From a bacterium UBP16_UBA6123 (GTDB lineage Bacteria; Muiribacteriota; UBA9980): a DNA stretch of 46,275 bases. The DNA is taken from positions 1-46,275 of the forward strand of contig DIVV01000044.1 in NCBI GenBank assembly GCA_002423385.1, in the 5' to 3' direction. Of the stretch, positions 4,115 through 38,585 are shown in pieces. Position 1 is the stretch's first letter. The number at the start of each line of letters is the position of its first letter. Position numbers and translations under genes: made by a program. The notes under the pieces are model-generated. The model saw only the letters and a list, made by a program, of their open reading frames with translations, was not told the origin of the DNA and searched no databases.

Positions 4115-4246
4115 TTTTTTGCGCGTCCGGGCGTTTTATTAGCGTCCGGCATTGAATTTAATAGAAATGGGGTGCCGCTTTAAAAACAGAAAGCGACTTT
4201 TGGTCGGTTGAATATTCAACCTGGTAAAGCTTTTTGAGCGATATTT

Positions 4247-4777: not shown

Positions 4778-4882
4778 AATTAAGCGTTTTACGATTTTTA
4801 TATAAAATATTAGTTACTGTAAATAATCAGTTAATTATTAGCACAATAAAAATATCAAACACAACTCGGAAGGAGAAATATC

Positions 4883-5311
4883 ATGGCTAAAAAAGTCGTC
4901 GCCTATGTTAAACTGCAATGCCCGGCCGGCAAAGCTAATCCCGCGCCTCCAGTAGGTCCCGCACTCGGCCAGCACGGCGTTAACATCATGGCATTTTGTA
5001 AAGAGTTCAACGCCCGCACTTCGGCGCAGGCTGGAACTATTATCCCGGTTGTTATTACGGTTTACGCCGACAAGAGTTTTGATTTCATATGCAAAACTCC
5101 GCCTGCAGCGATTTTATTACGCGAAGCGTTAAAACTCGAAAAAGGTTCCGGCGTTCCTAATAAAACTAAAGTCGGCAAAATAACTATGTCGAAGCTCAAA
5201 GAGATCGCTAAAAGAAAACTTAACGACCTTAACGCTTACGACGAAGAACAGGGCGCGAAAATCATCGGCGGCACAGCACGCTCGATGGGCATCGACGTTA
5301 TCGAAGATTAA
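4883..5311 (+). CDS. rplK: 50S ribosomal protein L11
   Basis: The conserved [27 protein letters not shown] motif is present and the RBS is GGAAGGAG. Confidence 0.97.
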
Positions 5312-5414
5312 TTTAAATAATTAATCGACCTTACAGATTCATTTAAGGCGCCTCACGCGCGCCGCTATTTGTGGAAGGATTTAATCCGCTATACCACGAG
5401 GAGGTTTACAGTTA

Positions 5415-6104
5415 ATGGGTAAAAAATTCGAAGCCGCTTTAAAAAAAGTGGAAGCCAACAAACTTTATAACTATCAGGACGCCATAAAACTCGCTAAAGA
5501 AATCGCTTTTACCAAATTCGACTCTTCATTCGAAATTGCCTTCAAACTTGGCGTTGACCCGAAACATGCCGATCAGCAGGTTAGAAGCACGGTCGTTCTT
5601 CCTCACGGCACGGGTAAAAAGGTTAAAATATTAGTTTTCGCCGCCGGCGAAAAAGCAAAAGAAGCCGAACAGGCTGGCGCAGATTACGTAGGCGCTGACG
5701 ATTACGCCGAAAAAATCAAAAAAGAAAGCTGGACCGATTTCGATTTCGTAGTAGCTACTCCCGATATGATGAAAATCGTCGGACAGCTCGGTAAAATATT
5801 AGGCCCCCGCGGCTTAATGCCGAACCCGAAAACCGGAACGGTTACATTCGATATCGCTAAAACCGTTAAAGAATTAAAAGCCGGCCGTATCGAGTTCCGC
5901 ACCGAAAAAACCGGTATAATCCACGGACCGTTCGGTAAAACTTCTTTTGACGAACAGAAATTGAACGACAACTTCAAGTCTTTCTACGAAGCGGTCGTCA
6001 GAGCTAAACCGACAGGCGCAAAAGGCCAGTATATCAAAACCATAACTATATCCACTACTATGGGTCCCGGCATGCGCATCAATCCTACTTCGGCAGCTTT
6101 ATAA
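5415..6104 (+). CDS. rplA: 50S ribosomal protein L1
   Basis: The 229-aa product shows the L1 family pattern ([20 protein letters not shown]...[12 protein letters not shown]) and the RBS is GAGGAGG. Confidence 0.97.
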
Positions 6105-9260: not shown

Positions 9261-9899
9261 TTATTCCTGAACATAAAGATAATTATTATCCGCTTTTATA
9301 ATATTTACTTTCCTGTTTTTTTCGATCATTTTTCCGTCGATAGATCTGGCCATCGCTACCTGGCGCCTTCCTTTGGCTGCGAATACGACCTGTCCGATAG
9401 GATTTTCATCATTTATACCGACGGTCAGTTCGCCGTTAATGCCTATCATATCGCTTTCTTTCACATTCGAAGAGCTCTGCACTTCACGAAAGACCATCGC
9501 AAAAGCGTAAAAAGTAAGCACGGCTATCATGCAGGCGAAAATAATGCCGGCTACTATGCCCATCACGGCGAAATAATTGCCGAAAACCTTCTGCCAGCAT
9601 ATTCCAAAGCCGCCGAAAGAAGTCGCGAACACCGATATCGTCATAGGAGAAAAAAGGGCCGGACCGGGAAGATTTGAATCGCCCGCGTCAGCTTGAGCGT
9701 GGGAAGTGTCATGACCGGCATGATGAATATCGACGACCCCGTCGCCTGAGTCATGAACTAATTCGTGCGACGAACTTAAATCGCCGTGATCAGCGTCGGA
9801 ATCGCCTGAAAAAGCTGAAAAAACTGCCGACAAAACGGCAAAACCAAGGCCCAGGACGAAGGAAAATGTGTATATTGACCCTAAATGCGCTTCCAGCAT
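9261..9899 (-). CDS. NfeD/YqiJ-like membrane protein, partner of the flotillin
   Basis: The product has multiple TM helices and a C-terminal NfeD-like OB-fold (GINGELTVGINDENPIGQVVFAAKGRRQVAMARSIDG). It lies directly upstream of the SPFH gene in the same orientation. An unusual His/Asp-rich loop (DSDADHGDLSSSHELVHDSGDGVVDIHHAGHDTSH) is also present. Confidence 0.75.
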   Translation of the reverse strand: MLEAHLGSIYTFSFVLGLGFAVLSAVFSAFSGDSDADHGDLSSSHELVHDSGDGVVDIHHAGHDTSHAQADAGDSNLPGPALFSPMTISVFATSFGGFGICWQKVFGNYFAVMGIVAGIIFACMIAVLTFYAFAMVFREVQSSSNVKESDMIGINGELTVGINDENPIGQVVFAAKGRRQVAMARSIDGKMIEKNRKVNIIKADNNYLYVQE

Positions 9900-10844: not shown

Positions 10845-12071
10845 CTATTTGCTTTTTTCGATAAGTAAAGCGGTAATGCGCGAATGTCCCTCCCGCCGGG
10901 AAAGCGATAAAGGCGTATTGCCGTGAAGCGTTACAACGTTAATATCGGCGCCGGAATCTATTAAAAGTTTAGCCGAATCATAACTGCCGATGTAAGCGGC
11001 CCAGGTCAGCGCGGTGTCGCCGTAGCAATCTTTAGCGTTAATATCGACGCCTTTTTCGATTAATAATTTTAATATATCGACGCTTCCGTGTTTTACGGCA
11101 AACGTCGCCGGCTTCATTTTTTCGTTATTCTCGTGCCTGTAATTAGCGCCATTTTCAAGCAGCAGCCTGACGATTCCGGTGAAACGGCTTTCTATGGCAT
11201 AAAATAGAGCGGTATTTCCGGCCTGATCGATTATTTCCATATCGGCGCCTTTTTCCAATAAAAGTTTTACCAGATCGGCATAGCCGCTTTTAGCCGAAAG
11301 CATAAGAGCCGTTTTCGAAGATGAATCGATGGAATTAAGTTTGAACCGGCCGCTATTTATCGAATCTATGGCGCTTTTCGGGTCGCCGGCTTTAATAAGC
11401 TGAAAAATATAATCGCCGGAAACCGTTCCGACTTTTTTAACTTTTTTAACTCCTTTGCCATCCGTATAAGAAGACTCTGAAGTTTCTTCGTTTTTCGATA
11501 TATAAATGCCTATGGCTATCAAAAACAGCATCATGACAAAACCGTATTTTATTATGGTCATAATCAGCGAAAATAAAGCGCCCAATAAATTTTTATTCTG
11601 ACGCTCCGGCGAAGTATAAATGTAGTTATCATTATCCGGCTTCAACTTTTTATTTTTTCTCACGGTTACCACGCCGCCGCGGCCGGCGGAAAGCAGCGCC
11701 GATATTTTTTTTTGAGAATATAACTCGGCGAGTTCGGCGGCGGCAAGCCCGGCGTTATCTTTTAAATGAACATTTGCGCCATTTTTTATAAGCGCCGAAG
11801 CGCTATCCGCGTTGGCGTAAGAAATGGCGTAGATAAGCGCGCTGTTTTTATTTTCATCGACTTTATCTATCGCGGCGTTTTCATTGATAAGAAATTCGAC
11901 GGTTTCGTAAGTTCCCGCCATAGCGGCTATCATTAAAATGGTAATGCCGCTTTTATCAGACCAGTTAACTAAAGACGGATCGGAGGATATGATTTTTTCA
12001 ACTCCACCTTTATCGCCGGATATCGCCGCCGCGATAAGCCTGTCATGTATAAAATTTTTATTGTTGCTCAT
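10845..12071 (-). CDS. Ankyrin-repeat protein with a central transmembrane helix
   Basis: Ankyrin repeats occur both N-terminal (DKSGITILMIAAMAGTYETVEFLINENAAID) and C-terminal (KTALMLSAKSGYADLVKLLLEKGADMEIIDQAGNTALFYAI, GDTALTWAAYIGSYDSAKLLIDSGADIN) to a hydrophobic segment (LLGALFSLIMTIIKYGFVMMLFLIAIGIYI). There is no N-terminal signal peptide. Confidence 0.8.
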   Translation of the reverse strand: MSNNKNFIHDRLIAAAISGDKGGVEKIISSDPSLVNWSDKSGITILMIAAMAGTYETVEFLINENAAIDKVDENKNSALIYAISYANADSASALIKNGANVHLKDNAGLAAAELAELYSQKKISALLSAGRGGVVTVRKNKKLKPDNDNYIYTSPERQNKNLLGALFSLIMTIIKYGFVMMLFLIAIGIYISKNEETSESSYTDGKGVKKVKKVGTVSGDYIFQLIKAGDPKSAIDSINSGRFKLNSIDSSSKTALMLSAKSGYADLVKLLLEKGADMEIIDQAGNTALFYAIESRFTGIVRLLLENGANYRHENNEKMKPATFAVKHGSVDILKLLIEKGVDINAKDCYGDTALTWAAYIGSYDSAKLLIDSGADINVVTLHGNTPLSLSRREGHSRITALLIEKSK

Positions 12072-12183
12072 AAATCACCTTTAATGAATTTATTACGCTG
12101 CTAAATTTTTTTTACAATCATTAATACCGAGCATTATTTTCGCGCATTATTTTCACGCGCTCAAATTTTTACCGCCGGATATA

Positions 12184-13200
12184 TCATGATAAAGCCGAAA
12201 GAAGCTCATCGACGACCCAGCCGTTATCCACGCAAACAAAACTCCACACTTCAGCGTATTCAACCGGCACGTATTCATCGCCTTTAACGACAGAACCGCC
12301 GGATTCGTTTACAGTATAGTCTATCATCGAAAATTTAATAAGCGCTTTCATATACCCGGCACCTGAAACGTCGTCGTTTTTAATCTCTATTATTTTAACG
12401 TCGATAATTTCAACATTCGCAATTATATTGCGCTCGCCCTTTGCCGTTATATCTTCTATGCGGCGCTGCTGCCTGTAGAAAAATCGACGGCTCATATATT
12501 TTTCGGCGCTCGATAATTCCCTTTCGCTCCATGAGCGCTGCACACACTTAAAAACTTCTTTAACGCGCTCGTATAACCGATATAAATCCTGCGTGCCGAT
12601 TTCAGACTGTTTCGCGCCGCTCGTAAGCCCGCTCGCGCCCGCCGGCGAAGATAAAGCGGAAACTGAGGAAAACGAAGCATCCGGGACTAATAAAGAAGAG
12701 GTAACTGAAATTGGAGATAAATTAAAAGAAGATGCCGAAACCGTAGTTAAAGAAGAATTGAGTCTATTTTTAGTTGATAATTTAATATTTAAATAGTGAA
12801 CAATGCCCATGATTGAAATAATTACAAAGGTGCAGAATAAAATTATTGCCGAAGCCAGATGAGCGTGCAGCGAATTGTTACCGCTTGCATACGAAGATTT
12901 ATATCTGGCGGCGCCCGATTTAGCGAACGGCCGCTTTCTGGCCTCCGTCTTATCTTTATAACCATAGCCGAAATCAAGCCCGCCGCCGTAATCAGAAACC
13001 GAATGAACGGCCTGCGATGAGGAACTGACGCTTTTAGCCTGACGCGCATAGGCGCTTTGCGTAAAATAAATAAATAAAACGGCAAAGATAAATGCCGCGG
13101 CCAAAAATGAAAAAAAGGTAGTTTTAAAGCCTTTTTTTAATTTATTTATTACGCAATTAAAGTGATTTATATCTTCGATCTTAACCGTATGAGTCGACAT
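12184..13200 (-). CDS. Membrane protein with a C-terminal Tim44-like domain
   Basis: Two TM helices, Ser-rich low-complexity linkers and a C-terminal region of about 140 aa (LYRLYERVKEVFK...RRFFYRQQRRIEDITAKGERNIIANVEII...EVWSFVCVDNGWVVDEL) resemble Tim44-like domain proteins. The call rests on motif recognition only. Confidence 0.5.
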   Translation of the reverse strand: MSTHTVKIEDINHFNCVINKLKKGFKTTFFSFLAAAFIFAVLFIYFTQSAYARQAKSVSSSSQAVHSVSDYGGGLDFGYGYKDKTEARKRPFAKSGAARYKSSYASGNNSLHAHLASAIILFCTFVIISIMGIVHYLNIKLSTKNRLNSSLTTVSASSFNLSPISVTSSLLVPDASFSSVSALSSPAGASGLTSGAKQSEIGTQDLYRLYERVKEVFKCVQRSWSERELSSAEKYMSRRFFYRQQRRIEDITAKGERNIIANVEIIDVKIIEIKNDDVSGAGYMKALIKFSMIDYTVNESGGSVVKGDEYVPVEYAEVWSFVCVDNGWVVDELLSALS

Positions 13201-13464: not shown

Positions 13465-14874
13465 TTGAGAAGAGTAGCTAAAAGTATTGCAACGGTTGTT
13501 ATTAGCGCATCATTAATGTTTAACGGCGGCGGAATTCATGCGGAAGAAATAAAAAACGAACGCATGAATAAAATAGATGTTCAAAAAACCCTCGATGAAA
13601 TCAGGGCTAAAGTAAATAAAAAAAGCGCTGAAATCAATATAAGCGCGTGCGCTGCCGATCAGCCATGCTCCGTTGAAAAAACTCAACAAACCGTAAAACC
13701 TATTAAAAAAGTAAAAGATTCACAAGATTCAGAATTTAAAAGCGAAGAATGCCTTCAGGCCGTTAAAGAAAAATCTTCGACCACGGCTAAAACTATAGCA
13801 AGTCATGAAGAAAAAATCCAGTTGGCCCAGGCCGCTCCCTTAGAAGTAAAAAAAATGGAAACAGCTCCCGCGCCTCCAACAGCGCCGGCGCCTGCTGCTG
13901 CACCGTCGCCCGTAGTTATTTCCGGCTACACACAGTTGTCGCACACGGTCAGCGACGTGCCGGCGGACAGCCACAGCTTTAACGTGGCAAGGACCAGATT
14001 CGTTTTCAAAAGAAAATTAGACGAAGACCTCAGCTTTTTTTCGCAGTTCAATATTACCGGCAATAACGCCGACTCTTCTCAAATGACGCTTACCGATTTA
14101 TTCGTGCAATATAACCTGGATAAATCACAAAATTTAATGCTCGGACAGTTCGTTGTTCCGGGTAACTATGAAGCCACAATTTCTCCGCGTGATTTGTATA
14201 TGATAAATTACGGACAACACATAATAAACACCGAACACGAAAATAGAGGCAACGACCTGCGCGACGTAGGTATAACCTACAATTACCGCAAGCCTGGCGA
14301 CAACTGGGGATTATCCATAGCGGCAGTTAACGGCGAAGGCATAAATACCCGCAACGATTCAACCGATTCAAAAACCATAATGGCGCGCCTGGACCTTGAA
14401 GCCGACAAGGCCCTCAAATTAGGCCTTTACGCCTCCGACGGCAAGCGCTTTAAAGCCGCATCCACGGCCGCTCAGGTAGCTTTTTACGGCGCAGACGGAG
14501 CCGCTACTACCGCAAAATCATTCGATAGAAAACGCGCCGGTTTTGACGCGCGCTATAAAAAAGATAAATTGACGCTTCAGGGCGTTTATGAAATTTTGGA
14601 AACCGGCCTCGCAGGCCGCGCCGGAAATCTCAAAGGTAAAGGTATGTTCGTTCAGGCCGGATATTTCGTTATGCCTAAACTTGAATTAACCTATAAACAC
14701 GACGCATTTACCCCTAATAAAGACAATACCGTTACCAAACGCACCATCAACGCCGCCGGTTTTAACTGGTTCATTAAAAAAGGCGCGAAATTACAGATGG
14801 TTTACCAGAAACAAAAAGAAACACCCGAAGTTAAAAACGACCGCCTGGATACGCTCGTTACAGTGGAATTCTAA
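13465..14874 (+). CDS. Outer-membrane beta-barrel protein, porin-like (possibly phosphate-selective porin O/P family)
   Basis: A TTG start with the strong RBS GGAGG is followed by a signal peptide (MRRVAKSIATVVISASLMFNGGGIHA). The product has a Pro/Ala-rich linker, alternating amphipathic strands and a C-terminal ...VTVEF ending in Phe. Confidence 0.6.
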   Translation: MRRVAKSIATVVISASLMFNGGGIHAEEIKNERMNKIDVQKTLDEIRAKVNKKSAEINISACAADQPCSVEKTQQTVKPIKKVKDSQDSEFKSEECLQAVKEKSSTTAKTIASHEEKIQLAQAAPLEVKKMETAPAPPTAPAPAAAPSPVVISGYTQLSHTVSDVPADSHSFNVARTRFVFKRKLDEDLSFFSQFNITGNNADSSQMTLTDLFVQYNLDKSQNLMLGQFVVPGNYEATISPRDLYMINYGQHIINTEHENRGNDLRDVGITYNYRKPGDNWGLSIAAVNGEGINTRNDSTDSKTIMARLDLEADKALKLGLYASDGKRFKAASTAAQVAFYGADGAATTAKSFDRKRAGFDARYKKDKLTLQGVYEILETGLAGRAGNLKGKGMFVQAGYFVMPKLELTYKHDAFTPNKDNTVTKRTINAAGFNWFIKKGAKLQMVYQKQKETPEVKNDRLDTLVTVEF

Positions 14875-29347: not shown

Positions 29348-32300
29348 ATGGAAAATAATCAAATAAATCTTGATGGCAGAACGGATACGGCGAAAAAATT
29401 TTTAAACGATTCGCTTTCTTTATTGATTCAGGCTGATATTTCGTCAGCCGATTTTTCGACTATTATTACCCGGATTAAATTAAATATCGACGATGCGCTC
29501 AAACTTTCTTCGTCTTCTTCCGAAACCGACCTGCTGTCGGTTTCTTTAAATTCGGCCAGTTCGATATTGTTTGAGACCGATCCAGAAATAATTAAAGTGT
29601 TAGTGGAGCTGCTTGAAAGCTCGTTAGCCAAAGCTATCGAGCATTTCGACGCTCTCGAAATCGCGGCGGACGGGCCGTCGCAGGCTGAACCTGCTAAAAC
29701 TGAAACGGTGAGAGATAAAAGTGCCGAGCGCGAAATATTGCTCACTTTTATTGACGAATGCGGCGAGCATATACAGGCGGCTGAAGAATCGCTTTTAAAA
29801 CTCGAAGAAGACCCTTCACGCCTGGATTCGCTTAACGACGTATTTCGTTCATTCCATACGATAAAAGGTTCGGCGCATTTTTTAAATTTAAAAAACATAT
29901 CTGAATTTGCGCATGAGGCCGAGAATTTTTTGAGTGAAATACGCGAAGGTAAAGTTAAATTCAGTAAAAGCAATCTCGAACTGGCTTTTCGCGCGATCGA
30001 CGAGTTAAAAATGCTTGTGGCCGGAGTTAAAGCGGATGGCAGTGATTCTAAGAGTCCCGATTATCGAAGGCTGATGACGGCCTTTAAAAAAGGCGGAGCG
30101 CATGAGGCGCCGGCAAGCGTCGAAGAAGTCGCGGCGGTTCCTCTTACAGCCGAAGGCCTGGCTAAAAAAGTAATAAGCGACCTGGAACATATATCTAATG
30201 CCTTGATGCAGGCTGAAACCGACGATCTTAAAACTTTTATAAATCTTAAAAATTCTCTGAACAGCGTTGCGAAGGTCTGCACCGACGAAGTAGCCGTTTC
30301 GGTAATTGAAGCGGCTGGTTTTCAGCTCGATGAAATTATTACAAGCACGGCAGATGACTGCTTTCAAATAGTCAGCGTTGCAAGCGCGATGATTGAATCC
30401 TGCATAACCCATCTTGAAAGCCGAATTTCCGGCCAAAAATCTAAAGCAGCCGCGCCGGCGGTCAGGACCGCTGTTTCCAGAGCAGTCAAACCGGCCGCGG
30501 AAAAAATCGAAAAAACCGTCATTGAACCCGCGGCGGAGGTTGTTATAGCCGAATCCCTGCCGGCAATCGAAGTCAGCTTCGAATTCGAACCCGATAGTAT
30601 CGATCGTGAAATGTTTTTGACTTTTATCGATGAATGCCTCGAACATATCCAGGCGTCTGAAGAAGCGCTTTTAAACTTAGAAAACAATCTCGAAGATATA
30701 ACTTCCATAAACACGGTTTTCAGGGCGTTTCATACAGTAAAAGGCTCTTCGTCGTTTCTGGGTCTCGCGGGAGTTACGGAGCTGGCACATCACGCCGAAT
30801 CGCTTTTAGTTAAAATACGCGATAAAGAAATACCATATAATAAAAGCTTCGCCGATATCTGTCTCAGATCGGTCGATATATTAAAAACGCTTATCGTTTC
30901 ACTTAAAATCGGCGATTATAAAAAGCCCGATAATTACGACGATCTGTTAAGGCTTTTAATGAGCCCTGAATTAAAAAAAGGAATCGTGCCGCAGTTTGCG
31001 GCAGCGTCGAAAGTTAAGCCGGGTTCTTCGGCTGCCACGGCGTCTCCAGCCGCCGTCGTTTCTTTAAAATCGCCGGTTGAATCATTTGCGGTCGCGCCGG
31101 CCGTTAAAATAACCGAAACCGCTCCGCGGTTAAATGTTCCGGCCGCCGCCGCGCAAGTTAAATCCGCCGTGGAGGCGCCTGAAGCAAAAAAAACGCCCGT
31201 TTCTACAAACGATGAAGAAGAATCAACGGTCCGCGTTAAAATTGCGCGAATCGATAAGCTTATCGATATGGTCGGAGAGCTGGTTATTTCACATTCGATG
31301 GTCGCGCAGGATGAGGCCATGGTAAACGGAGCCAACCATATACTGGCAAAAAAAGTAATGCAGTCAGGTAAAATTATTCGCGAATTGCAGGATTTAAGCA
31401 TGACTATGCGTATGATACCCTTCCGCGCAACTTTTCAAAAAATGGCCCGCGTGGTGCGCGATATTTCCGGTAAAAACGGCAAAGAAATAGATTTTATAAC
31501 TTCCGGTAAAGAAACGGAAGTTGACCGTAATCTTGTAGATATAATTAACGACGCGCTTATGCACATGGTAAGAAACTCCGTAGATCACGGTATCGAGCCG
31601 CCCGAAGTAAGAAAGCAGGCGGGCAAGCCTGAAAAAGGCCGCGTAGTGCTTTCGGCGTTTCATTCAGGCGGCAATGTCGTAATCGAAATAAAAGACGACG
31701 GCAAGGGGCTGGATCGTCCCAAAATCGTTAAAAAAGCTATTGAAAAGGGCCTGATTAAATCCGATGAAACTATGAGCGATTCAGAAGTTTTCAATCTCGT
31801 CTTTCTTCCCGGATTTTCTACGGCGGATCAGATTACCGATATATCCGGCCGCGGCGTCGGTATGGACGTGGTTAAAACATCCATAGAATCCTTGCGCGGG
31901 CGTATCGATATAACCTCGATGCCCGGTAACGGCTGTTGCTTTTCGATCAAAGTGCCGCTAACTCTCGCCGTTACCGATGGTATGCTTATAAAGGTGGGAT
32001 CGCAGCGTTATATAATACCTACCGCCAATATTTATCTTACTTTCAGGCCTAAAATCGAAGATATATTTACAATGGCCGGCCGCGGCGAAATGGTAATGCT
32101 TCACCAGAAGATGATACCGGTTTTCAGGCTTCATAAAATTTTCAACATATCCAATGCGATTGAAAATCCATGGGATTCTTTATTCGTAGTTATCGACGAC
32201 GGCGATAATAAGCACTGCGCGGTACTGGTAGACGAACTTCTCGGCCAGCAGCAGATAGTGGCTAAACCGCTCGGTAACGCGCTCGGTAAAATCGAAGGCA

Positions 32301-32413
32301 TTTCCGGCGGCGCGATACTCGGCGACGGCAAGGTGGGCCTTATAATAGACACTAAAGAGATAGTCAGCATTGCCCGCCAGATGGCCAACGTTCAGATCAA
32401 GCAGATCGCGTGA
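29348..32413 (+). CDS. cheA: Chemotaxis histidine kinase CheA with two tandem Hpt (P1) domains
   Basis: Hpt-1 is ILLTFIDECGEHIQAAEE...FRSFHTIKGSAHFL and Hpt-2 is EMFLTFIDECLEHIQASEE...FRAFHTVKGSSSFL. A dimerisation domain (VRVKIARIDKLIDMVGELVI), a HATPase domain (DALMHMVRNSVDHGIE...GRGVGMDVV) and a C-terminal CheW-like domain follow. Confidence 0.92.
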   Translation: MENNQINLDGRTDTAKKFLNDSLSLLIQADISSADFSTIITRIKLNIDDALKLSSSSSETDLLSVSLNSASSILFETDPEIIKVLVELLESSLAKAIEHFDALEIAADGPSQAEPAKTETVRDKSAEREILLTFIDECGEHIQAAEESLLKLEEDPSRLDSLNDVFRSFHTIKGSAHFLNLKNISEFAHEAENFLSEIREGKVKFSKSNLELAFRAIDELKMLVAGVKADGSDSKSPDYRRLMTAFKKGGAHEAPASVEEVAAVPLTAEGLAKKVISDLEHISNALMQAETDDLKTFINLKNSLNSVAKVCTDEVAVSVIEAAGFQLDEIITSTADDCFQIVSVASAMIESCITHLESRISGQKSKAAAPAVRTAVSRAVKPAAEKIEKTVIEPAAEVVIAESLPAIEVSFEFEPDSIDREMFLTFIDECLEHIQASEEALLNLENNLEDITSINTVFRAFHTVKGSSSFLGLAGVTELAHHAESLLVKIRDKEIPYNKSFADICLRSVDILKTLIVSLKIGDYKKPDNYDDLLRLLMSPELKKGIVPQFAAASKVKPGSSAATASPAAVVSLKSPVESFAVAPAVKITETAPRLNVPAAAAQVKSAVEAPEAKKTPVSTNDEEESTVRVKIARIDKLIDMVGELVISHSMVAQDEAMVNGANHILAKKVMQSGKIIRELQDLSMTMRMIPFRATFQKMARVVRDISGKNGKEIDFITSGKETEVDRNLVDIINDALMHMVRNSVDHGIEPPEVRKQAGKPEKGRVVLSAFHSGGNVVIEIKDDGKGLDRPKIVKKAIEKGLIKSDETMSDSEVFNLVFLPGFSTADQITDISGRGVGMDVVKTSIESLRGRIDITSMPGNGCCFSIKVPLTLAVTDGMLIKVGSQRYIIPTANIYLTFRPKIEDIFTMAGRGEMVMLHQKMIPVFRLHKIFNISNAIENPWDSLFVVIDDGDNKHCAVLVDELLGQQQIVAKPLGNALGKIEGISGGAILGDGKVGLIIDTKEIVSIARQMANVQIKQIA

Positions 32414-32463
32414 AAAATAAAAATAAAAATAAATAAATAAAGTAATTTTGTACACTGGGAAGG

Positions 32464-33000
32464 ATGAAATCAAAGATGAGCGAAGAAGTCAACAGAAATT
32501 CCGGATTCGGTTCCATCGCCGCGGCCGTGAAAAAAATCGAAGGCGGCAAGTTTCTTACTTTCTATCTGGGCAGTGAAGAATATGGAATTCAGATACTTAA
32601 AGTTCAGGAAATAATCGGTATAATGGAAATCACGCCCGTGCCGCGCACTCCCGATTTTATTAAAGGGGTTATCAATTTGCGCGGCCATATAATTCCTATA
32701 ATTTATCTAAGGTCTAAATTCGGAATGCCTCAGATTGAAAATACCGAACAAACTTGTATAGTCGTAGTCAAAACCAGAAATCTTATAATGGGCCTGATAG
32801 TCGATAGAGTATGCGAAGTTTCCGATATTCCTACTAATGATATCGATGAAGCGCCGTCATTCGGCACTTTCGTCAACACCGAATATATACTTGGAATAGG
32901 AAAATTCGCGAGTAAAGTTAAATTGCTGTTAGACATAGATAAAGTTATTACCGCCCAGGAATATGACGGTATAGCGAAAATAGTCCAGAGCGCCGCTTAA
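32464..33000 (+). CDS. cheW: Chemotaxis coupling protein CheW
   Basis: The CheW fold is recognisable (FLTFYLGSEEYGIQILKVQEIIGIMEITPVPRTPDFIKGVINLRGHIIPIIYLR). Confidence 0.9.
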   Translation: MKSKMSEEVNRNSGFGSIAAAVKKIEGGKFLTFYLGSEEYGIQILKVQEIIGIMEITPVPRTPDFIKGVINLRGHIIPIIYLRSKFGMPQIENTEQTCIVVVKTRNLIMGLIVDRVCEVSDIPTNDIDEAPSFGTFVNTEYILGIGKFASKVKLLLDIDKVITAQEYDGIAKIVQSAA

Positions 33001-33066: not shown

Positions 33067-36000
33067 ATGGAGGTCGTAATGGAGTCACTGAAACGCAGGT
33101 TAATGCTTACGGGTGCATTTATTGTTTTTTTTCCGATGTTAATAACCATAGGCGCGCTTTATATTACAGGCGCTCTTAAAACGCCCGTATTGCTGGCGGT
33201 AGCAGGCGGCGCTATAGTCGGTCTCGCCGCGGCGCTTCTTGCCGTGGAAAAAATCATGGCTTCGGCCGTTAAACTCAATTCCGCCGTAGAAAAAATTTCG
33301 AAAGGCGAAACCGTTAAAATTGTTGGAGCCGACAGGACCGATTATTTTTATTTGATAATTGAAAACTTAAATCAAATGATTAATAATTGTGATAGTTTTA
33401 AAAAAGATATCGGAACGGTTATGGACAGCCTGATTAACGGCGATTGTACCTTTAATGTTAATTTAAGCCAGTATGACGGAAATTACCGCGTGGCGCTCGA
33501 AAAAATAATCGAATCATGCAAAAAAGTCAATGAACCGCTCAGTGTTATGAACGGCGTTATCGATAAAGTCAGCAAGGGCGATATTACAAGCGAACGAATT
33601 AACGTAGAGACCAGAGGCGCCATGACCTCGCTTAAAAATAACACCAACTCGCTTCTTAACACGATAGATAATCTTTTAAATGAAGTTAAGGTAGTTTGTA
33701 TCGCCACTATTTTCGAAGGCAAACTCGATAAGCGCGCTAACGTATCTCTGTTTAGCGGTCGCTGGGCGCGTTTGGCGACGGGCATAAACGATATAGTAAA
33801 CACATTCGTTAAACCGCTCACGCTATCCTCCGATTATATAACCTCGATAAGCTGCGGCAATATTCCGGCTAAAATTACGGAAGAATACAAGGGCGATTTT
33901 AATATACTCAAAAATTCGTTCAATCTCTGCATAGGCAATCTTCAATCGATGATAAAAGAAGTCAACGACCTTACGCATGCGGCGGCGGACGGCAATCTCA
34001 AAAAAAGAGGCAATGCCGATAAATATGAAGGCGCTTATCGTGAAATCATATCCGGCATCAATCAAACTCTGGATTCCGTCATTAATCCCGTTAGTAAAAT
34101 GAATGAATATTTAGTGCAGCTCAGCAAAGGCGAAATCGCCGGCAAAATCGAAGATGATTGCAAAGGCGATTTCTGCGAGCTCAAAGACAGCCTCAATAAA
34201 CTTATAACGACGCTCGATAACCTGCTTAATGAAGTCAAGGTAGTTTGTATCGCTACTATTTTCGAAGGTCACATAGATAAGCGCGCTAACGTATCGCTTT
34301 TTTCCGGCCGCTGGGCTAAGCTGGCCTCGGGTATAAACGATCTTATCAACGCTTTCGCCAACCCTCTGAAGATGTCGGCGAGCTATATCACCCAAATCGG
34401 CAGCGGCACGATACCGCCCGTGATCACTGAAGAATATAAAGGCGATTTCAATTTAATCAAAAATTCGTTCAATAGTTGCATAGGCAATTTGAATAACTTA
34501 ACGGTCGAAGTCGAAGCGCTCACGCACGCGGCTACCGACGGCAAGCTGAAAGTGCGCGGTAATGCCGATAAATTCGAAGGCGTTTACAGGGAAATAATAG
34601 TGGAAATAAACAGCACGCTCGATGCTATCGTTAATCCGCTTAACGTTGCCGCCGATTATGTGGCTAAAATAAGCAGAGGCGAAGTTTCTGAGAAAATCAC
34701 AGCCGAGTACAAGGGCGATTTCAACGATATCAAACTGAATCTTAACAGTCTCATAAATACGGTAGATACTATGCTCGGCGAAATAAAAACTATATGTATC
34801 GCGGTTATATTTGAAGGCAAACTCGATAAACGCACCAGCGTCTCACAATTCAGCGGCCGCTGGGCTAAACTCGCTTCGGGTATAAACGATATAGTAAATT
34901 CTTTAGTCAATCCCTTAAAGGTATCTTCGGATTATCTGCTTAAAATAAGCCATGGTGAAATACCTTCTAAAATTACCGAAGAATATAAAGGCGATTTTAA
35001 CGAAATCAAAAGCAGTATCAATACCTGTCTGGATACTTTGACTTCGCTTATTATAACCGACGGCGGCGCGGCGCTTCAGGCGGCGGCCGATAAAGACCTT
35101 ACCGCACGGGTTAAAAAGACCTATAGCGGTTTATACGATAAAATGAAGGAAAATATTAATTCGCTGATTGAAAATCTGGAGGAAATGTTTAAAAATATAG
35201 GCGCGAACGCTGAAAACGTTTCATCTTCGTCGAGCCAGATCAGTAAAGGCGCGCAGTCTCTCGCGCAGGGCGCCTCCGAACAGGCGAGCGCTCTGGAAGA
35301 AGTATCGAGCAGTCTTCATCAGATGAATTCGATGGCCAGACAGAATGCCGCCAATGCCAAGGAAGGTCAGAATCTTACTACGAGCGCCCGCAGCAGCACC
35401 GAACGCGGCGTTGACAGCATGAAAAAAATGTCGGTGGCTATAAACCAGATCAAAGATTCGTCGAATAACACGGCTAAGATATTAAAAACCATTGACGAAA
35501 TAGCTTTTCAAACCAATCTTCTCGCTTTGAACGCGGCCGTCGAAGCGGCGCGCGCGGGTGATGCGGGCAAGGGCTTCGCGGTCGTCGCCGATGAAGTGAG
35601 AAATCTGGCTATGAGAAGCGCGGAGGCCGCTAAAAATACGGCGCGTATGATAGAAGAATCGGTTAAATACGCTAATAACGGCGTTGGTATAAACGAGGAA
35701 GTAATGAAAAACCTCGATGAAATCAACGGCCAGGTAAAAAAAGTAAATGAATTCATGTCCGAAATTTCCGCCGCTTCAGAGCAGCAGAGCGAAGGCATTA
35801 ATCAAATTAACACCGCGGTCGCGCAGATGAATCAGGTCACGCAGCAGAACGCCGCTTATTCCGAAGAATCGGCGAGCGCTTCACAGGAGCTTACCTATCA
35901 GGCCGATCAGATGAAAAATATGATCTTGCAGTTTAAACTCAGCAGCGTTAAAACGAGGGTAATGAATGGAGGCTTCGATTATAACTCGGCTCCCGGGTAT

Positions 36001-36171
36001 AACAGGCGGCCGATAATTCAGCCTATAGCGCCGCCGGCCGCGCATGCGCCTCACATGAAAAAAGATTTTGGCGAATATGAAAATTATCAGGCGTCTTCAA
36101 AAAGTATAGAGGCCGACCCAAAAAAAGTGATACCCTTCGAAGACGATACTAATGTGCTGCATGAGTTTTAA
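33067..36171 (+). CDS. Methyl-accepting chemotaxis protein with two N-terminal TM helices, no periplasmic domain and a cytoplasmic poly-HAMP-like repeat array
   Basis: A canonical MCP signalling domain is present ([45 protein letters not shown]). Six HAMP-like units of about 90 aa come in two alternating flavours (..[32 protein letters not shown].. and ..[34 protein letters not shown]..). The likely start is the ATG at 33079, which follows GGAGG. Confidence 0.9.
33640..35030 (+). repeat. Three tandem copies of a ~549-bp intragenic repeat inside the MCP gene
   Basis: Near-identical stretches occur at 33679-33735, 34228-34284 and, more diverged, 34811-34834 (aatgaagtYaaggtagtttgtatcgcYactattttcgaagg...gataagcgcgctaacgtatc). 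The period is 549 bp, or 183 aa. Confidence 0.85.
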
Positions 36172-36206: not shown

Positions 36207-37046
36207 ATGGAATATATTTCGGCTAAATTAAGTGATTATGAATTCGACAGAATATCCGGTCTGGTATATTCACTTTGTGGAATAAGCCTCGGCAGCGGAA
36301 AGAAAGAATTAGTGACGGCCCGCCTGGCCAAAAGGCTTAACGAGCTCAAACTTCAGAGTTATGACGCTTATCTTAAGTATTTAAGCGGCGATGAGAGCGG
36401 TTACGAGCTGCTACAGCTTATAGACGTAATAACTACCAATGTAACGAGTTTTTTTCGGGAAATGCACCATTTTGATTATATCAGGGAGCGTATTCTGCCG
36501 GAATATAGAATTAAATCGGAAAAGATCCGCGTCTGGAGCGCCGGCTGCTCTTCGGGTGAAGAACCTTACTCGATGGCGGTTCTGCTTTTTGAAGAAATCG
36601 GAAATCTTATGCTTCGCGACGTGAAAATATTGGCTACGGATATATCCACTAACATTCTGACGAAGGCCAAAGAAGGCGTCTATGATAAGCAGCTCGTGAA
36701 CGGCGTTCCAAAGATGCTGTTGAACAAATATTTCGACGCTTTCACGGACAGGGACGAATACGGCAGAACTTTATATAATTTTAAAGTTAAATCCGACATA
36801 AGGAGCGTCGTGCGCTTCGCGCGTCTTAATTTAATGGAAGATTGGCCTATGAAGGGGCCGTTTAAAATTATATTCTGCCGTAACGTTATGATTTATTTCG
36901 ATAAAAAAACTCAGGAAAAATTAGTCGGCAAGTATCACGCCCTGCTCGAAACCGGCGGACATTTATTCATCGGTCATTCTGAAAATTTATCGTCTATTTC
37001 GCATTCGTTTAAATATGTTCAGCCGGGGGTGTATCTGAAATGTTAA
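36207..37046 (+). CDS. cheR: Chemotaxis protein methyltransferase CheR
   Basis: The SAM-binding motif VWSAGCSSGEEPYSMAV is present and the product has CheR-typical length and architecture. Confidence 0.9.
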   Translation: MEYISAKLSDYEFDRISGLVYSLCGISLGSGKKELVTARLAKRLNELKLQSYDAYLKYLSGDESGYELLQLIDVITTNVTSFFREMHHFDYIRERILPEYRIKSEKIRVWSAGCSSGEEPYSMAVLLFEEIGNLMLRDVKILATDISTNILTKAKEGVYDKQLVNGVPKMLLNKYFDAFTDRDEYGRTLYNFKVKSDIRSVVRFARLNLMEDWPMKGPFKIIFCRNVMIYFDKKTQEKLVGKYHALLETGGHLFIGHSENLSSISHSFKYVQPGVYLKC

Positions 37047-37513
37047 AAGTCGTAGGCATGGCGGATATGAAAATATCGAACGCCGACAGCGATATAATCG
37101 TCACTTACGCGCTTGGAAGCTGCATCGGGCTTACCGTTTACGATCCTTTAACCAGGGTCGGCGGCATGATGCATGCGATGATGCCTGATTCAAAAATAGA
37201 CCCGCCGCGTTCGAAAGAAAATCCCTTTATTTTCGTGGATACCGGATTTCCTCTGCTCATCGACGAATGCCTTAAATACGGGGCTAAAAAGGAACGCCTT
37301 CAAATAAAAGCGGCAGGCTGTTCAGCGCTTAAAACGGGTCATTTTTTTAAGATCGGGTATAAAAATTTTAACTGCTTGAACGATCTTTTAAGTTCTTATA
37401 ATTTATCGCTTCATGCTTACGACGTAGGCGGCGCGGCATCGCGAACTATGAAACTGGCGATTTCAGACGGCGAAGTCCTCGTTGAAGATAACCGGAAAAA
37501 AATAAAACTATAA
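37040..37513 (+). CDS. cheD: Chemoreceptor glutamine deamidase CheD
   Basis: The CheD signature ALGSCIGLTVYDP...GGMMHAMMP is present. The gene overlaps the 3' end of cheR. Confidence 0.85.
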   Translation: MLKVVGMADMKISNADSDIIVTYALGSCIGLTVYDPLTRVGGMMHAMMPDSKIDPPRSKENPFIFVDTGFPLLIDECLKYGAKKERLQIKAAGCSALKTGHFFKIGYKNFNCLNDLLSSYNLSLHAYDVGGAASRTMKLAISDGEVLVEDNRKKIKL

Positions 37514-37529
37514 ATTCGGGGGAATAAAA

Positions 37530-38585
37530 TTGATTAAAGTATTGATAGTAGATGATTCCGCGGTAGTCAGAAAAGTTTTGAGCGAAGAACTTTCTAAGTT
37601 CAGTGATATTTCCGTTATAGGAACGGCTCCCGACGCTTACGTGGCGCGCGAAAAAATAGTTAAATTAATGCCGGACGTGATCACCCTCGATATCGAAATG
37701 CCGCGCATGGACGGTCTTACTTTTTTAGAAAAATTAATGACGCATTTTCCGATACCGGTAGTTATAGTAAGTTCGCTCGCTCCGAAAACCAGCGATAACG
37801 CGATTAAAGCCATGATGCTCGGCGCCGTCGAGATCGTCAATAAAACGGGCTCGCAGTATTCGCTGCCGGACGTCGCCGGAAGTCTCGTGCGCGCCATTCG
37901 CAACGCCGCCGGCGCTAAAGTATTCGCGCGCGGCGTACAATCCGGCGCGGCGGCGGCAAGGGAGGTTAAACCTCAATTTACGGCTATTTCGGAAAACGAT
38001 ATTAAACTTCAAACCACTCATAAAATTATAGCCATAGGGGCTTCTACCGGCGGCACGCAGGCTACCGAAGCGGTTTTAAAAGCTCTTCCGTTGAGCTCTC
38101 CCGCTATTATTATCGTTCAGCACATGCCGGAAGGTTTTACCAATTTTTACGCTAGAAGGCTTAACGAGGTATGCGCTATCGAAGTGCGCGAAGCTAAAGA
38201 CGACGATTATCTCGTGCCGGGTATGGCGCTTCTCGCGCCTGGCGGAAAGCATATGGTGCTTCATAAAAGCGGCGCGCGTTATTTCGTCAAACTTAAAGAA
38301 GGGCCCGCGGTTCATCATCAGAAACCGAGCGTCGATGTGCTATTTCAATCAGTCGCGAGGTCGGCGGGTAAAAACGCGGTCGGCGTAATACTTACCGGGA
38401 TGGGTTCCGACGGTGCGGCCGGTCTTCTTGAAATGAAAAAAAACGGCGCCCATACCATCGCTCAGGATGAAAAAACCTGCGTGGTTTTCGGAATGCCCAA
38501 AGAAGCCATTAACGCAGGCGCGGTTGACGAAACTTTGTCCATCGACGATATCGCCCGCGCGATGCTCACGGCTTCGGCTAAATAA
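37530..38585 (+). CDS. cheB: Chemotaxis response regulator protein-glutamate methylesterase CheB
   Basis: A receiver domain (KVLIVDDSAVVR...DVITLDIEMPRMDG) is joined to a methylesterase domain (IIAIGASTGGTQA...HMPEGFT...GMGSDGA). The gene has a TTG start. Confidence 0.93.
   Translation: MIKVLIVDDSAVVRKVLSEELSKFSDISVIGTAPDAYVAREKIVKLMPDVITLDIEMPRMDGLTFLEKLMTHFPIPVVIVSSLAPKTSDNAIKAMMLGAVEIVNKTGSQYSLPDVAGSLVRAIRNAAGAKVFARGVQSGAAAAREVKPQFTAISENDIKLQTTHKIIAIGASTGGTQATEAVLKALPLSSPAIIIVQHMPEGFTNFYARRLNEVCAIEVREAKDDDYLVPGMALLAPGGKHMVLHKSGARYFVKLKEGPAVHHQKPSVDVLFQSVARSAGKNAVGVILTGMGSDGAAGLLEMKKNGAHTIAQDEKTCVVFGMPKEAINAGAVDETLSIDDIARAMLTASAK

What the first reader, a model, noticed from the sequence alone, without database searches (positions are those of the whole stretch)
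33067..36171. MCP with no periplasmic sensor and a recently triplicated 549-bp repeat encoding a poly-HAMP-like array
The two N-terminal TM helices are separated by only about 3 residues (..[15 protein letters not shown]..), so there is no periplasmic ligand-binding domain. Downstream, about 550 aa consist of six HAMP-like units in two alternating sequence flavours. These are organised as three ~183-aa double units whose DNA copies retain long near-identical stretches (for example 33679-33735 versus 34228-34284), which points to recent tandem duplication. Poly-HAMP receptors such as Aer2 are known but rare. This one looks built to transduce a membrane or cytoplasmic signal through an extended HAMP relay. 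The repeat also creates potential for copy-number variation by recombination.
Basis: partly seen in the sequence, partly recalled or inferred. Interest (0 to 1): 0.6.

Follow-up and report, generated by a model that had tools for sequence, protein, structure and literature searches.

The report
Membrane-anchored chemoreceptor with 14 HAMP domains
This gene encodes a bacterial chemotaxis receptor whose signal-relay region is a chain of 14 HAMP domains built from an old, not recent, internal triplication. It belongs to an already described "poly-HAMP" receptor class, and two related lineages have each lost one 549-bp repeat.

Summary

**What is there.** The ORF (most likely 33079-36171) is a methyl-accepting chemotaxis protein. 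It lies in a cheA-cheW-mcp-cheR-cheD-cheB cluster of a Candidatus Wallbacteria genome. It has a two-helix membrane hairpin with no periplasmic domain, a long HAMP array and a signalling domain of Tsr length.

**Corrections.**
- The array holds 14 HAMP domains (7 di-HAMP modules), not six. Each 183-aa repeat contains four HAMPs.
- The triplication is old. The DNA copies are 66-72% identical, dS is about 1.4 or more, and the longest shared exact word is 20 nt. Each copy is 81-99% identical to its positional counterpart in other species but only 47-63% identical to its sister copies.
- Poly-HAMP chemoreceptors are not rare. A 2026 paper lists 723, and my search found homologues with 6 to about 25 HAMPs.

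**Copy number.** It does vary. Two separate lineages carry clean 549-bp in-frame deletions with different breakpoints, both inside the most conserved stretch.

**Conservation.** HAMPs 4-14 are conserved almost as strongly as the kinase-control domain. The membrane hairpin and HAMPs 1-2 evolve fast.

**Verdict.** New member of a known kind, of modest interest.

The parts
33079..36171 (+). MCP gene. This is the probable true start; the longest ORF begins at 33067. Product is 1030 aa (1034 aa from 33067). Residue numbers in this report use the 1034-aa numbering.
   Evidence: ORF list. GGAGG lies 5 nt upstream of ATG 33079. Database orthologues all start at this Met.
33100..33246 (+). Transmembrane hairpin. 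TM1 is about aa 12-33, the loop TGALKTP is aa 34-40, and TM2 is about aa 41-60. The KRR motif before TM1 suggests an N-in topology. There is no periplasmic domain.
   Evidence: Kyte-Doolittle scan. The AF2 secondary structure shows two helices, 2-33 and 39-78 (low confidence). This is the fastest-evolving part, 36-52% aa identity between lineages.
33247..33528 (+). HAMP1 (canonical-like, aa 61-108) and HAMP2 (non-canonical-like, aa 109-154). Both are divergent.
   Evidence: My canonical HMM, which was not trained on H1, hits aa 70-110 with E = 1.4e-3. hhalign matches H1 to the canonical profile at E = 3.4e-3 and H2 to the non-canonical profile at E = 7.9e-4. Pfam does not detect either in isolation. 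AF2 secondary structure shows connectors at 79-94 and 124-138.
33529..33681 (+). HAMP3 (canonical, subtype A2, aa 155-205).
   Evidence: Pfam HAMP_2 E = 1.3e-8 on the isolated fragment. HMM hit.
33682..34233 (+). Repeat copy 1 at protein level: HAMP4 (B1), HAMP5 (A1), HAMP6 (B2), HAMP7 (A2), aa 206-389. This block is absent from the two-copy orthologues.
34234..34785 (+). Repeat copy 2: HAMP8 (B1), HAMP9 (A1), HAMP10 (B2), HAMP11 (A2), aa 390-573.
   Evidence: It aligns with the AskA 6-HAMP structure 9TRK.
34786..35184 (+). Repeat copy 3, incomplete: HAMP12 (B1), HAMP13 (A1), HAMP14 (divergent B2, aa 664-706). HAMP14 leads into the signalling domain.
33673..33777 (+). Most conserved stretch of the repeat (aa 203-237, [31 protein letters not shown]). 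Its counterpart is at 34222-34326. Both natural 549-bp deletions have their breakpoints here, and local gene conversion is possible.
   Evidence: Breakpoint mapping. Local pS is 0.29-0.46 against 0.64 overall. Concerted synonymous sites number 28, against 5 orthologous and 5 cross (confounded by GC3 drift).
35185..35946 (+). Methyl-accepting / kinase-control domain (aa 707-960). It is the same length as E. coli Tsr and carries EQ/EE methylation-type sites at about aa 738-745 and 932-934.
   Evidence: Pfam MCPsignal E = 1.1e-45. Gapless alignment to Tsr residues 273-517, E = 1e-49 to 1e-50. Motif scan.
35947..36168 (+). Variable, probably disordered C-terminal tail. It ends in the conserved motif DPKKVIPF-x-D-x-x-VL-x-EF.
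   Evidence: Alignment A2. No secondary structure in the AF2 model. 53-61% identity between lineages.
29348..33000 (+). Upstream operon partners: CheA (29348-32413, two Hpt domains) and CheW (32464-33000).
   Evidence: Pfam. Synteny is conserved in orthologous loci.
36207..38585 (+). Downstream operon partners: CheR (36207-37046), CheD (37040-37513), CheB (37530-38585).
   Evidence: Pfam. Synteny is conserved.

Best explanation
**What it is.** The gene encodes the dedicated receptor of a cheA-cheW-mcp-cheR-cheD-cheB cluster in a Candidatus Wallbacteria genome. The protein is a homodimeric methyl-accepting chemotaxis protein. A two-helix hairpin with no external sensor domain anchors it in the membrane. 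Next comes a tightly concatenated array of 14 HAMP domains. These form seven di-HAMP modules in which canonical HAMPs (NPL..SKGEI..EEYKGDF) alternate with non-canonical HAMPs (EG/DG-KL-x-KR..G-[RAV]-[WY]). The protein ends in a Tsr-length kinase-control domain with methylation sites.

**How the array arose.** It was built by an ancient amplification of a 4-HAMP (183-aa, 549-bp) block to about three copies, before the sampled Wallbacteria species diverged. Each position has since been held under purifying selection. Homologous recombination within the most conserved 100 nt of the block has removed one block, in frame, in two separate lineages. Each deletion shortens the array from 14 to 10 HAMPs and keeps the canonical/non-canonical alternation intact.

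**Inferred mechanism (not shown here).** A conformational input arises at the membrane hairpin or within the array. It passes down the array by alternating helix rotation or packing changes (gearbox or dynamic-bundle models) to the methyl-accepting domain. That domain controls CheA through CheW. CheR, CheB and CheD adapt it by methylation, demethylation and deamidation.
For: **Domain identity**
- Pfam HAMP_2 x7 (E = 3.6e-131) and MCPsignal.
- Isolated fragments H3, H5, H7 and H13 each hit HAMP_2.
- 266 aa of the array align to 272 aa of the AskA 6-HAMP crystal structure 9TRK (E = 7e-19), which gives about 45 aa per HAMP.
- My HMMs find 7 canonical and 6 non-canonical units. H2 matches the non-canonical profile weakly.
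- AF2 secondary structure shows 14 connectors in aa 61-706 and 6 in the H3-H8 fragment (low confidence).
- By my reading of the sequences printed, capping glycines 12-13 residues apart are present in 13 of 14 HAMPs at each cap position. The regex in that call mislocated several of them.

**Topology:**

**Signalling domain:** gapless alignment to Tsr.

**Operon:**, with conserved synteny.

**Age of the repeat**
- Paralogous units are 47-63% identical in amino acids. Orthologous units are 81-99% identical.
- dS is 1.44 for copies 1-2 and 2.4 or saturated for comparisons with copy 3. dN/dS is 0.12-0.20.
- Three-copy forms occur in four lineages, including the most divergent one.

**Deletions**
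- P0004 and P0005 each lack exactly 183 aa.
- Each is sister to a three-copy form.
- The breakpoints differ and both lie within aa 203-237.
- The 839-aa form is seen in three assemblies.

**Class already described:** PMC13446029.
Against: - No structure of adequate confidence was obtained (pLDDT 39 and 43). HAMP1 and HAMP2 therefore rest on weak profile matches.
- Neither the input signal nor the output is known. No CheY-like receiver is encoded anywhere in the 46-kb window other than CheB's own.
- The membrane hairpin, the assumed input site, is the least conserved part. This fits poorly with a specific conserved sensing role there.
- The three assemblies carrying the 839-aa two-copy form may derive from the same sample. 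The 846-aa form rests on one 4.5-kb contig.
Confidence: 0.85

Rival explanations
1. The poly-HAMP array is itself the sensor, and the hairpin is only an anchor. On this view HAMPs 4-14 detect a cytoplasmic or physical cue, such as osmolarity, temperature, pH, a small molecule, a covalent modification or a partner protein.
For: - HAMP4-14 are 80-98% identical between lineages (pN 0.02-0.12), almost as conserved as the kinase-control domain (94-97%).
- The hairpin and HAMP1-2 are only 36-54% identical.
- Coles et al. 2026 state that poly-HAMP arrays typically lack upstream sensors. [quoted passage not shown]
Against: - There is no direct evidence for it here.
- Strong conservation could equally reflect tight inter-HAMP packing constraints.
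- Two lineages tolerate the loss of four HAMPs.
- Most homologues with similar arrays do have periplasmic 4HB, Cache or PAS sensors. This shows that such arrays can act as relays.
Confidence: 0.3
2. The array is mainly a rigid spacer or length ruler. It places the CheA/CheW baseplate far from the membrane and keeps this receptor's lattice separate from those of shorter MCPs. Array length is the tunable property.
For: - The gene sits with its own CheA and CheW.
- Length changes occur in whole 4-HAMP steps that preserve alternation.
- Homologues span 6 to about 25 HAMPs.
Against: - A spacer would not need position-specific conservation of 80-98% at every HAMP. Nor would it need the four distinct subtypes A1, A2, B1 and B2 to be retained.
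- No imaging data exist.
Confidence: 0.2
3. The repeat is a recent tandem triplication, or it is homogenised along its whole length by ongoing gene conversion.
For: - A short stretch (aa 203-237) is 82-92% identical between copies within a genome. It shows more genome-specific ('concerted') synonymous sites than orthologous ones: 28 versus 5.
Against: - Outside that stretch, the copies are no more alike within a genome than between genomes.
- Overall dS is 1.44 or more.
- Units cluster by position across species.
- GC3 ranges from 0.38 to 0.72 among the orthologues. That alone produces 'concerted' synonymous patterns.
Confidence: 0.05
4. The repeat number is an assembly artefact, with copies expanded in the window or collapsed in the two-copy orthologues.
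For: - All the sequences are metagenome-assembled.
- Several database contigs end inside this gene, giving partial products of 374, 401 and 713 aa. The region is therefore hard to assemble.
Against: - The copies differ at 28-34% of bases and share no exact word longer than 20 nt. De Bruijn collapse or expansion is therefore unlikely.
- Three-copy genes of 1022-1030 aa appear in at least seven independent assemblies.
- The 839-aa form appears in three assemblies.
- The reading frame and HAMP alternation are preserved at both deletion junctions.
Confidence: 0.03

Closest known systems
Chemoreceptor-associated poly-HAMP arrays (HAMP groups A and B) described by Coles, Dunin-Horkawicz et al., Protein Sci 2026 (PMC13446029), and earlier by Dunin-Horkawicz & Lupas 2010
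   Same: - Five or more directly concatenated HAMPs lie upstream of a methyl-accepting domain.
- Canonical and non-canonical HAMPs alternate strictly as di-HAMP modules.
- Capping glycines are conserved, followed by a bulky aromatic residue (GDF, GRW, GAY).
- There is no dedicated upstream sensor domain.
- Related proteins differ in module number.
   Different: - The paper describes these chemoreceptors as soluble. This one has an N-terminal membrane hairpin.
- In many bacterial arrays the di-HAMP modules are nearly identical (recent amplification). Here the modules are old and have diverged into four conserved subtypes.
- The repeating block is two di-HAMPs (four HAMPs), not one.
Myxococcus xanthus AskA poly-HAMP histidine kinase (PDB 9TRK, 9TRJ)
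   Same: It is the best solved-structure match, with six consecutive HAMPs aligned at E = 7e-19. Spacing is the same at about 45 aa per HAMP, and canonical and non-canonical types alternate in the same way.
   Different: - It belongs to the kinase family (HAMP groups C/D followed by GAF, DHp, CA and REC). Coles et al. consider that family to have arisen independently.
- It is soluble.
- Its output is a histidine kinase, not an MCP signalling hairpin.
Pseudomonas aeruginosa Aer2 (PDB 3LNR, 3VOL, 4I3M)
   Same: It is an MCP with several HAMPs, including a concatenated HAMP2-HAMP3 di-HAMP. There is weak sequence similarity (E = 7e-5 to 3VOL). Pfam HAMP_2 matches the window's array.
   Different: - Aer2 has five HAMPs split by a haem-PAS sensor and is soluble.
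- Coles et al. class it as 'multi-HAMP', not poly-HAMP.
- No PAS or haem domain is present here.
HtrI/HtrII phototransducers and other MCPs with two TM helices and no periplasmic domain
   Same: They have a membrane hairpin with a minimal external loop, followed by more than one HAMP and an MCP signalling domain. In Htr proteins the input comes from within the membrane (established knowledge, cited).
   Different: - Htr proteins have two HAMPs, not 14.
- They are encoded next to their sensory rhodopsin partner. No membrane-protein partner gene is conserved next to this MCP.
Fungal group III hybrid histidine kinases (Nik1/Os-1/Bos1)
   Same: They have a poly-HAMP array of ~92-aa di-HAMP repeats without an upstream sensor. 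Repeat number varies between relatives, and the array is implicated in sensing (from PMC13446029).
   Different: They are eukaryotic and soluble, with a histidine-kinase output and different HAMP sequence groups.

Membership tests
Methyl-accepting chemotaxis protein (MCP) | Conserved cytoplasmic signalling (MA) hairpin domain | tested here: met
   Pfam MCPsignal E = 1.1e-45 against a cutoff of 34.6 bits. Gapless 245-residue alignment to E. coli Tsr, E = 1e-50.
Methyl-accepting chemotaxis protein (MCP) | Methylation-type Glu/Gln pairs in the adaptation region, with CheR/CheB available | tested here: met
   EQ/EE pairs align with the Tsr methylation helices. CheR, CheD and CheB lie immediately downstream. 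Actual methylation was not tested.
Chemoreceptor-type poly-HAMP array (Coles et al. 2026) | [quoted passage not shown] | tested here: met
   There are 14 units in aa 61-706. Thirteen were detected by HMM, Pfam or the PDB alignment, and one (H2) only weakly.
Chemoreceptor-type poly-HAMP array (Coles et al. 2026) | Strict alternation of canonical and non-canonical HAMPs (di-HAMP modules) | tested here: met
   Canonical HMM hits fall at H1, 3, 5, 7, 9, 11 and 13. Non-canonical hits fall at H4, 6, 8, 10, 12 and 14.
Chemoreceptor-type poly-HAMP array (Coles et al. 2026) | Conserved capping glycines at HAMP-HAMP junctions, and a bulky hydrophobic residue at the interface | tested here: met
   By my reading of the sequences printed, the AS1-cap Gly is present in 13 of 14 HAMPs (H14 has Lys) and the AS2-cap Gly in 13 of 14 (H1 lacks it). 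The spacing is 12-13 residues, followed by F, W or Y. The regex in that call mislocated some positions.
Chemoreceptor-type poly-HAMP array (Coles et al. 2026) | Membership of HAMP sequence groups A and B in the authors' cluster map | not testable with these tools
   The authors' profiles are not available here. The weak matches to Aer2 HAMP2, which the authors place in group A, are consistent with membership.
Chemoreceptor-type poly-HAMP array (Coles et al. 2026) | Soluble protein, as the family is described in the abstract | tested here: not met
   Two N-terminal hydrophobic helices are present. Among 115 homologues, 81 have TM helices with a periplasmic domain, 26 are soluble, about 5 have a hairpin and 3 have a single TM block. 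Solubility is therefore not universal for arrays of this sequence type.
Aer2-type receptor | Haem-binding PAS domain between HAMP blocks | tested here: not met
   No PAS hit in Pfam at E <= 1.
36H length class of MCP signalling domains (Alexander & Zhulin 2007; Tsr is the type example, from my own knowledge) | Same number of heptads as Tsr, with no indels relative to it | tested here: met
   Query residues 13-259 align to Tsr 273-517 with only a 2-residue end difference and no internal gaps. The alignment to the 44H-type T. maritima receptor 2CH7 needs length differences: 213 versus 227 residues.

The most novel reading that the evidence does not exclude
The conserved part of this receptor is the array, not the membrane anchor. 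HAMPs 4-14 are kept at 80-98% identity across species whose hairpin and first two HAMPs have drifted to 36-54%. This leaves open that the poly-HAMP array is itself the input device, sensing a cytoplasmic or physical cue or binding a partner along its surface. If so, the natural 14-HAMP and 10-HAMP orthologues in an otherwise identical che operon would be evolution's own length-tuning experiment. The still unknown function of chemoreceptor poly-HAMP arrays would become directly testable by swapping these alleles.
Probability: 0.2. Interest if true: 0.55.

Novelty: new member of a known kind. Interest (0 to 1): 0.3.

Why it matters
Poly-HAMP arrays are a described receptor module, but they are functionally unexplained. 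[quoted passage not shown] This locus adds a clean natural example of that idea:
- The ancestral state is datable. The 14-HAMP form is present in four lineages.
- Two independent, in-frame, parity-preserving 4-HAMP deletions have mapped breakpoints.
- A per-domain conservation profile shows that the array is under stronger constraint than the membrane anchor.

This is useful material for anyone testing how signal sign and gain depend on array length. It does not reveal a new kind of system. It also corrects the idea that such arrays occur only in soluble receptors.

Tried and rejected
- **Tandem Repeats Finder** found nothing, because its longest period is 500. The repeat was recovered with the repeat finder and a lag-identity profile.
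- **AlphaFold2 on the full-length monomer with a 5-sequence alignment** gave pLDDT 39.
- **AlphaFold2 on the H3-H8 fragment with a 9-row alignment** gave pLDDT 43.
- In both models only the secondary-structure strings were used, as weak support. No fold search was run, because low-confidence models give meaningless matches. An obligate dimeric coiled coil cannot be modelled properly as a single chain with this tool.
- **Pfam on isolated H1 and H2 fragments** found no HAMP family. These two units rest on my own HMM and hhalign.
- **First test for gene conversion, using all sites**. I rejected it as confounded by amino-acid differences.
- **Corrected test using synonymous third positions**. It still shows an excess of genome-specific sites in aa 203-237. 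However, GC3 differs from 0.38 to 0.72 among the orthologues, so I treat this as suggestive only.
- **Ligand-binding fold for the repeats:** considered and rejected. No such Pfam or PDB hit was found.
- **Assembly artefact:** considered and rejected, given the copy divergence and multiple assemblies.
- **Mobile or viral origin:** considered and rejected. The flanks are core chromosome genes (EF-G, EF-Tu, NusG, L11/L1/L10, Der, PlsY, GpsA, LepA).
Full report
**1. What is in the sequence**

The finding's coordinates hold a single ORF, 33067-36171 on the + strand, of 1034 aa. GGAGG lies at 33070-33074, just upstream of a second ATG at 33079. Every database orthologue begins at that Met. The gene is therefore most likely 33079-36171 (1030 aa). 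I keep the 1034-aa numbering below.

The gene sits between CheA (29348-32413) plus CheW (32464-33000) and CheR, CheD and CheB (36207-38585). The surrounding region is core chromosome: EF-G, EF-Tu, NusG, L11/L1/L10, Der, PlsY, GpsA and LepA. The same order, LepA-ACT-CheA-CheW-MCP-CheR-CheD-CheB, is found in orthologous loci. The named sources are Candidatus Wallbacteria MAGs, for example GWC2_49_35 and ADurb.Bin243.

**2. Checking the observation**

*Topology.* A hydropathy scan shows two hydrophobic blocks at about aa 12-33 and 41-60. They are joined by TGALKTP, and KRR precedes the first block.

*The DNA repeat.*
- A direct repeat of period 549 with three copies is real.
- In 60-nt windows, lag-549 identity reaches 0.55-0.88. 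The background elsewhere in the window is 0.264 +/- 0.06, with a maximum of 0.45.
- The copies are only 72% (1 versus 2) and 66% (1 versus 3) identical.
- The cited 'near-identical' pair matches at 50 of 57 positions.
- The longest exact word shared by any two copies is 20 nt.
- The third copy fades after about 35030.

*Domain identity.* Pfam assigns the region to HAMP_2 (PF18947), with seven stretches and E = 3.6e-131, followed by MCPsignal. The refutation criterion that the repeats belong to a ligand-binding fold is therefore not met.

**3. Anatomy of the array**

The best HAMP_2 match covers aa 502-567. By my parse, that is the second helix of a preceding non-canonical HAMP plus one complete canonical HAMP. 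On this reading the seven HAMP_2 stretches mark seven di-HAMP modules. Five lines of evidence support a count of 14 HAMPs in aa 61-706:

- (a) 266 aa of the array align to 272 aa of the AskA 6-HAMP crystal structure 9TRK at E = 7e-19, which gives about 45 aa per HAMP.
- (b) HMMs built from units H3-H14 of five orthologues find 7 canonical units, including H1, which was not in the training set (E = 1.4e-3). They also find 6 non-canonical units.
- (c) H2 matches the non-canonical profile only weakly, at hhalign E = 7.9e-4. Pfam does not see H1 or H2 in isolation.
- (d) Both AF2 models are unreliable in three dimensions (pLDDT 39 and 43). Even so, they show long helices interrupted by 14 connectors in the full protein and 6 in the H3-H8 fragment.
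- (e) By my reading of the sequences, each unit carries the two capping glycines 12-13 residues apart, followed by F, W or Y. The exceptions are H1 at the second cap and H14 at the first. Coles et al. single out these features for chemoreceptor poly-HAMP arrays.

The units fall into four subtypes:

| Subtype | Members | Identity within subtype |
|---|---|---|
| A1 (canonical) | H5, H9, H13 | 55-63% |
| A2 (canonical) | H3, H7, H11 | 41-42% |
| B1 (non-canonical) | H4, H8, H12 | 68-81% |
| B2 (non-canonical) | H6, H10; H14 and H2 divergent | H6-H10 68% |

The 183-aa repeat is therefore B1-A1-B2-A2, which is four HAMPs.

*Signalling domain.* It aligns without internal gaps to E. coli Tsr residues 273-517, so it has the Tsr (36H) length. 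Methylation-type EQ/EE pairs lie at the equivalent positions.

**4. Age of the repeat**

- Nei-Gojobori distances between copies are dS 1.44 (1-2) and 2.4 or saturated (with copy 3). dN/dS is 0.12-0.20.
- Across orthologues, units cluster by position. u1-u1 is 87-90% identical, u2-u2 79-92% and u3-u3 85-99%. Within one protein, u1-u2 is about 60-63% and u1 or u2 against u3 is 45-53%.
- Three-copy genes of 1022-1030 aa occur in four lineages, including the most divergent one (L010, 77% identical).

The triplication therefore predates the divergence of these species and is not recent.

*The locally high identity at aa 203-237.* This is mostly explained by near-invariant protein sequence. There is an excess of genome-specific synonymous sites in that stretch: 28 concerted against 5 orthologous and 5 cross. 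In the rest of the unit the counts are 41, 25 and 17. This hints at short-tract gene conversion. However, GC3 ranges from 0.38 to 0.72 among the orthologues, so I treat it as suggestive only.

**5. Copy-number variation**

- Two orthologues, P0004 (846 aa) and P0005 (839 aa, Wallbacteria GWC2_49_35), lack exactly 183 aa.
- Flank identities give the tree (window, P0004), (P0003, P0005), P0002. Each two-copy form is therefore sister to a three-copy form.
- At DNA level each two-copy gene is a u1/u2 chimera. The switch points are about 75 nt apart, and both lie in the conserved B1 HAMP stretch.
- These are therefore two independent homologous-recombination deletions of 549 bp. Each removes four HAMPs and preserves the frame and the alternation.
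- The 839-aa form appears in three assemblies, possibly of the same sample. The 846-aa form rests on one 4.5-kb contig.
- Collapse by an assembler is unlikely, given how little exact sequence the copies share.

**6. Constraint along the protein**

| Region | Amino-acid identity between the three main lineages |
|---|---|
| Membrane hairpin | 36-52% |
| H1 | 38-42% |
| H2 | 43-54% |
| H3 | 65-71% |
| H4-H14 | 80-98% (pN 0.02-0.12) |
| Signalling domain | 94-97% |
| C-terminal tail | 53-61% |

The array is thus not a freely drifting spacer, and the anchor is not a conserved sensor.

**7. Comparison with what is known**

Coles, Dunin-Horkawicz and colleagues (Protein Sci 2026, PMC13446029) report the following:
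- They define poly-HAMP arrays as tightly concatenated di-HAMP modules of canonical plus non-canonical HAMPs.
- They found 723 chemoreceptors and 4778 kinases with five or more consecutive HAMPs.
- They note that relatives differ in module number.
- They state that such arrays usually lack an upstream sensor.
- They say the role of these arrays is unclear.
- They class Aer2 separately, as 'multi-HAMP'.

My searches agree that the class is common. They returned hundreds of HAMP_2-rich MCPs from Desulfobacterales, Bacillota, Cloacimonadales, Kapaibacteria, Methanospirillum and others, with 6 to about 25 HAMPs each.

Among 115 homologues, 81 have a periplasmic domain, 26 are soluble, about 5 have a bare hairpin and 3 have a single TM block. 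The hairpin form is thus a minority, but it is not unique. 'Soluble' is not a general property of arrays of this sequence type.

**8. Mechanism**

*Shown:*
- the domain composition
- the operon context
- the age of the repeat
- purifying selection on the array
- the recombinational deletions

*Inferred from established models (gearbox and dynamic bundle, as summarised):*
- The dimer forms 14 stacked four-helix bundles.
- A conformational change passes through them with alternating sense to the methyl-accepting domain. That domain regulates the adjacent CheA through CheW.
- CheR, CheB and CheD adapt the receptor.
- Removing four HAMPs keeps the parity, and so presumably the sign, of the relay.

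Where the input enters is unknown. The conservation gradient favours the array over the hairpin somewhat, but packing constraints could give the same pattern. I give the 'array is the sensor' reading about 0.2-0.3.

**9. Verdict**

This is a real and correctly located feature. It is a new member of a known kind (chemoreceptor poly-HAMP), here in a membrane-anchored, anciently diversified form. The claims of recency and rarity are not supported. The copy-number claim is supported and is the most useful part.

Noticed in passing
window 33067-33081: The longest ORF starts at ATG 33067. However, GGAGG (33070-33074) sits 5 nt upstream of a second ATG at 33079, and all database orthologues start at that second Met. 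The annotated start should probably be 33079.
   Followed up: yes
window 29348-32413 (+): The CheA here is 1021 aa and has two Hpt (P1) domains. Each carries a phospho-His box: FRSFHTIKG at aa 166 and FRAFHTVKG at aa 458. The orthologous CheA of the P0003/P0005 lineage is about 905 aa and matches that box pattern only once.
   Followed up: partly
window 36115-36168 (MCP C-terminus): After a poorly conserved tail, the last ~18 residues, DPKKVIPF(E/D)(D/E)D(T/S)xVLxEF, are conserved in all orthologues. The position recalls the CheR/CheB-tethering pentapeptide of Tar and Tsr (NWETF, from memory). However, the second position is Leu, not an aromatic residue.
   Followed up: no
window 1-46275: A phmmer search with CheB's receiver domain against all ORFs of 70 aa or more finds only CheB itself. 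No CheY-like response regulator is encoded anywhere in the window, so the output partner of this che cluster lies elsewhere.
   Followed up: partly
window 33079-33528 versus 33682-35946: There is a steep conservation gradient within one gene. The membrane hairpin and HAMP1-2 are 36-54% identical between lineages, while HAMP4-14 and the signalling domain are 80-98% identical.
   Followed up: yes
MCP genes: window 33079-36171; L004 6001-9069; L006 909-3977; L010 4001-7069: GC3 of the orthologous MCP genes ranges from 0.38 (L010) through 0.50 (window) and 0.59 (L006) to 0.72 (L004). This is a strong base-composition drift among these Wallbacteria lineages, and it confounds tests for gene conversion.
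   Followed up: partly
proteins P0125, P0126, P0128 (cluster of P0002): Several MAG contigs end inside this gene, giving partial products of 401, 713 and 374 aa. The repeat region evidently breaks short-read assemblies even though the copies are diverged.
   Followed up: no
L034 (contig CAYTCW010000029.1), match 4001-5476: The same MAG that carries the 94%-identical orthologue (L007) also has a second poly-HAMP MCP, 50% identical to residues 196-1030. Another Wallbacteria MAG has two more distant ones (L052, L078). These genomes therefore hold several receptors of this type.
   Followed up: no
window 10845-13200 (-): Two adjacent genes stand out. One encodes an ankyrin-repeat protein (10845-12071). 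The other carries a Tim44-like domain (12184-13200). Neighbouring ORFs 9261-9899 and 13465-14874 have no Pfam family.
   Followed up: no
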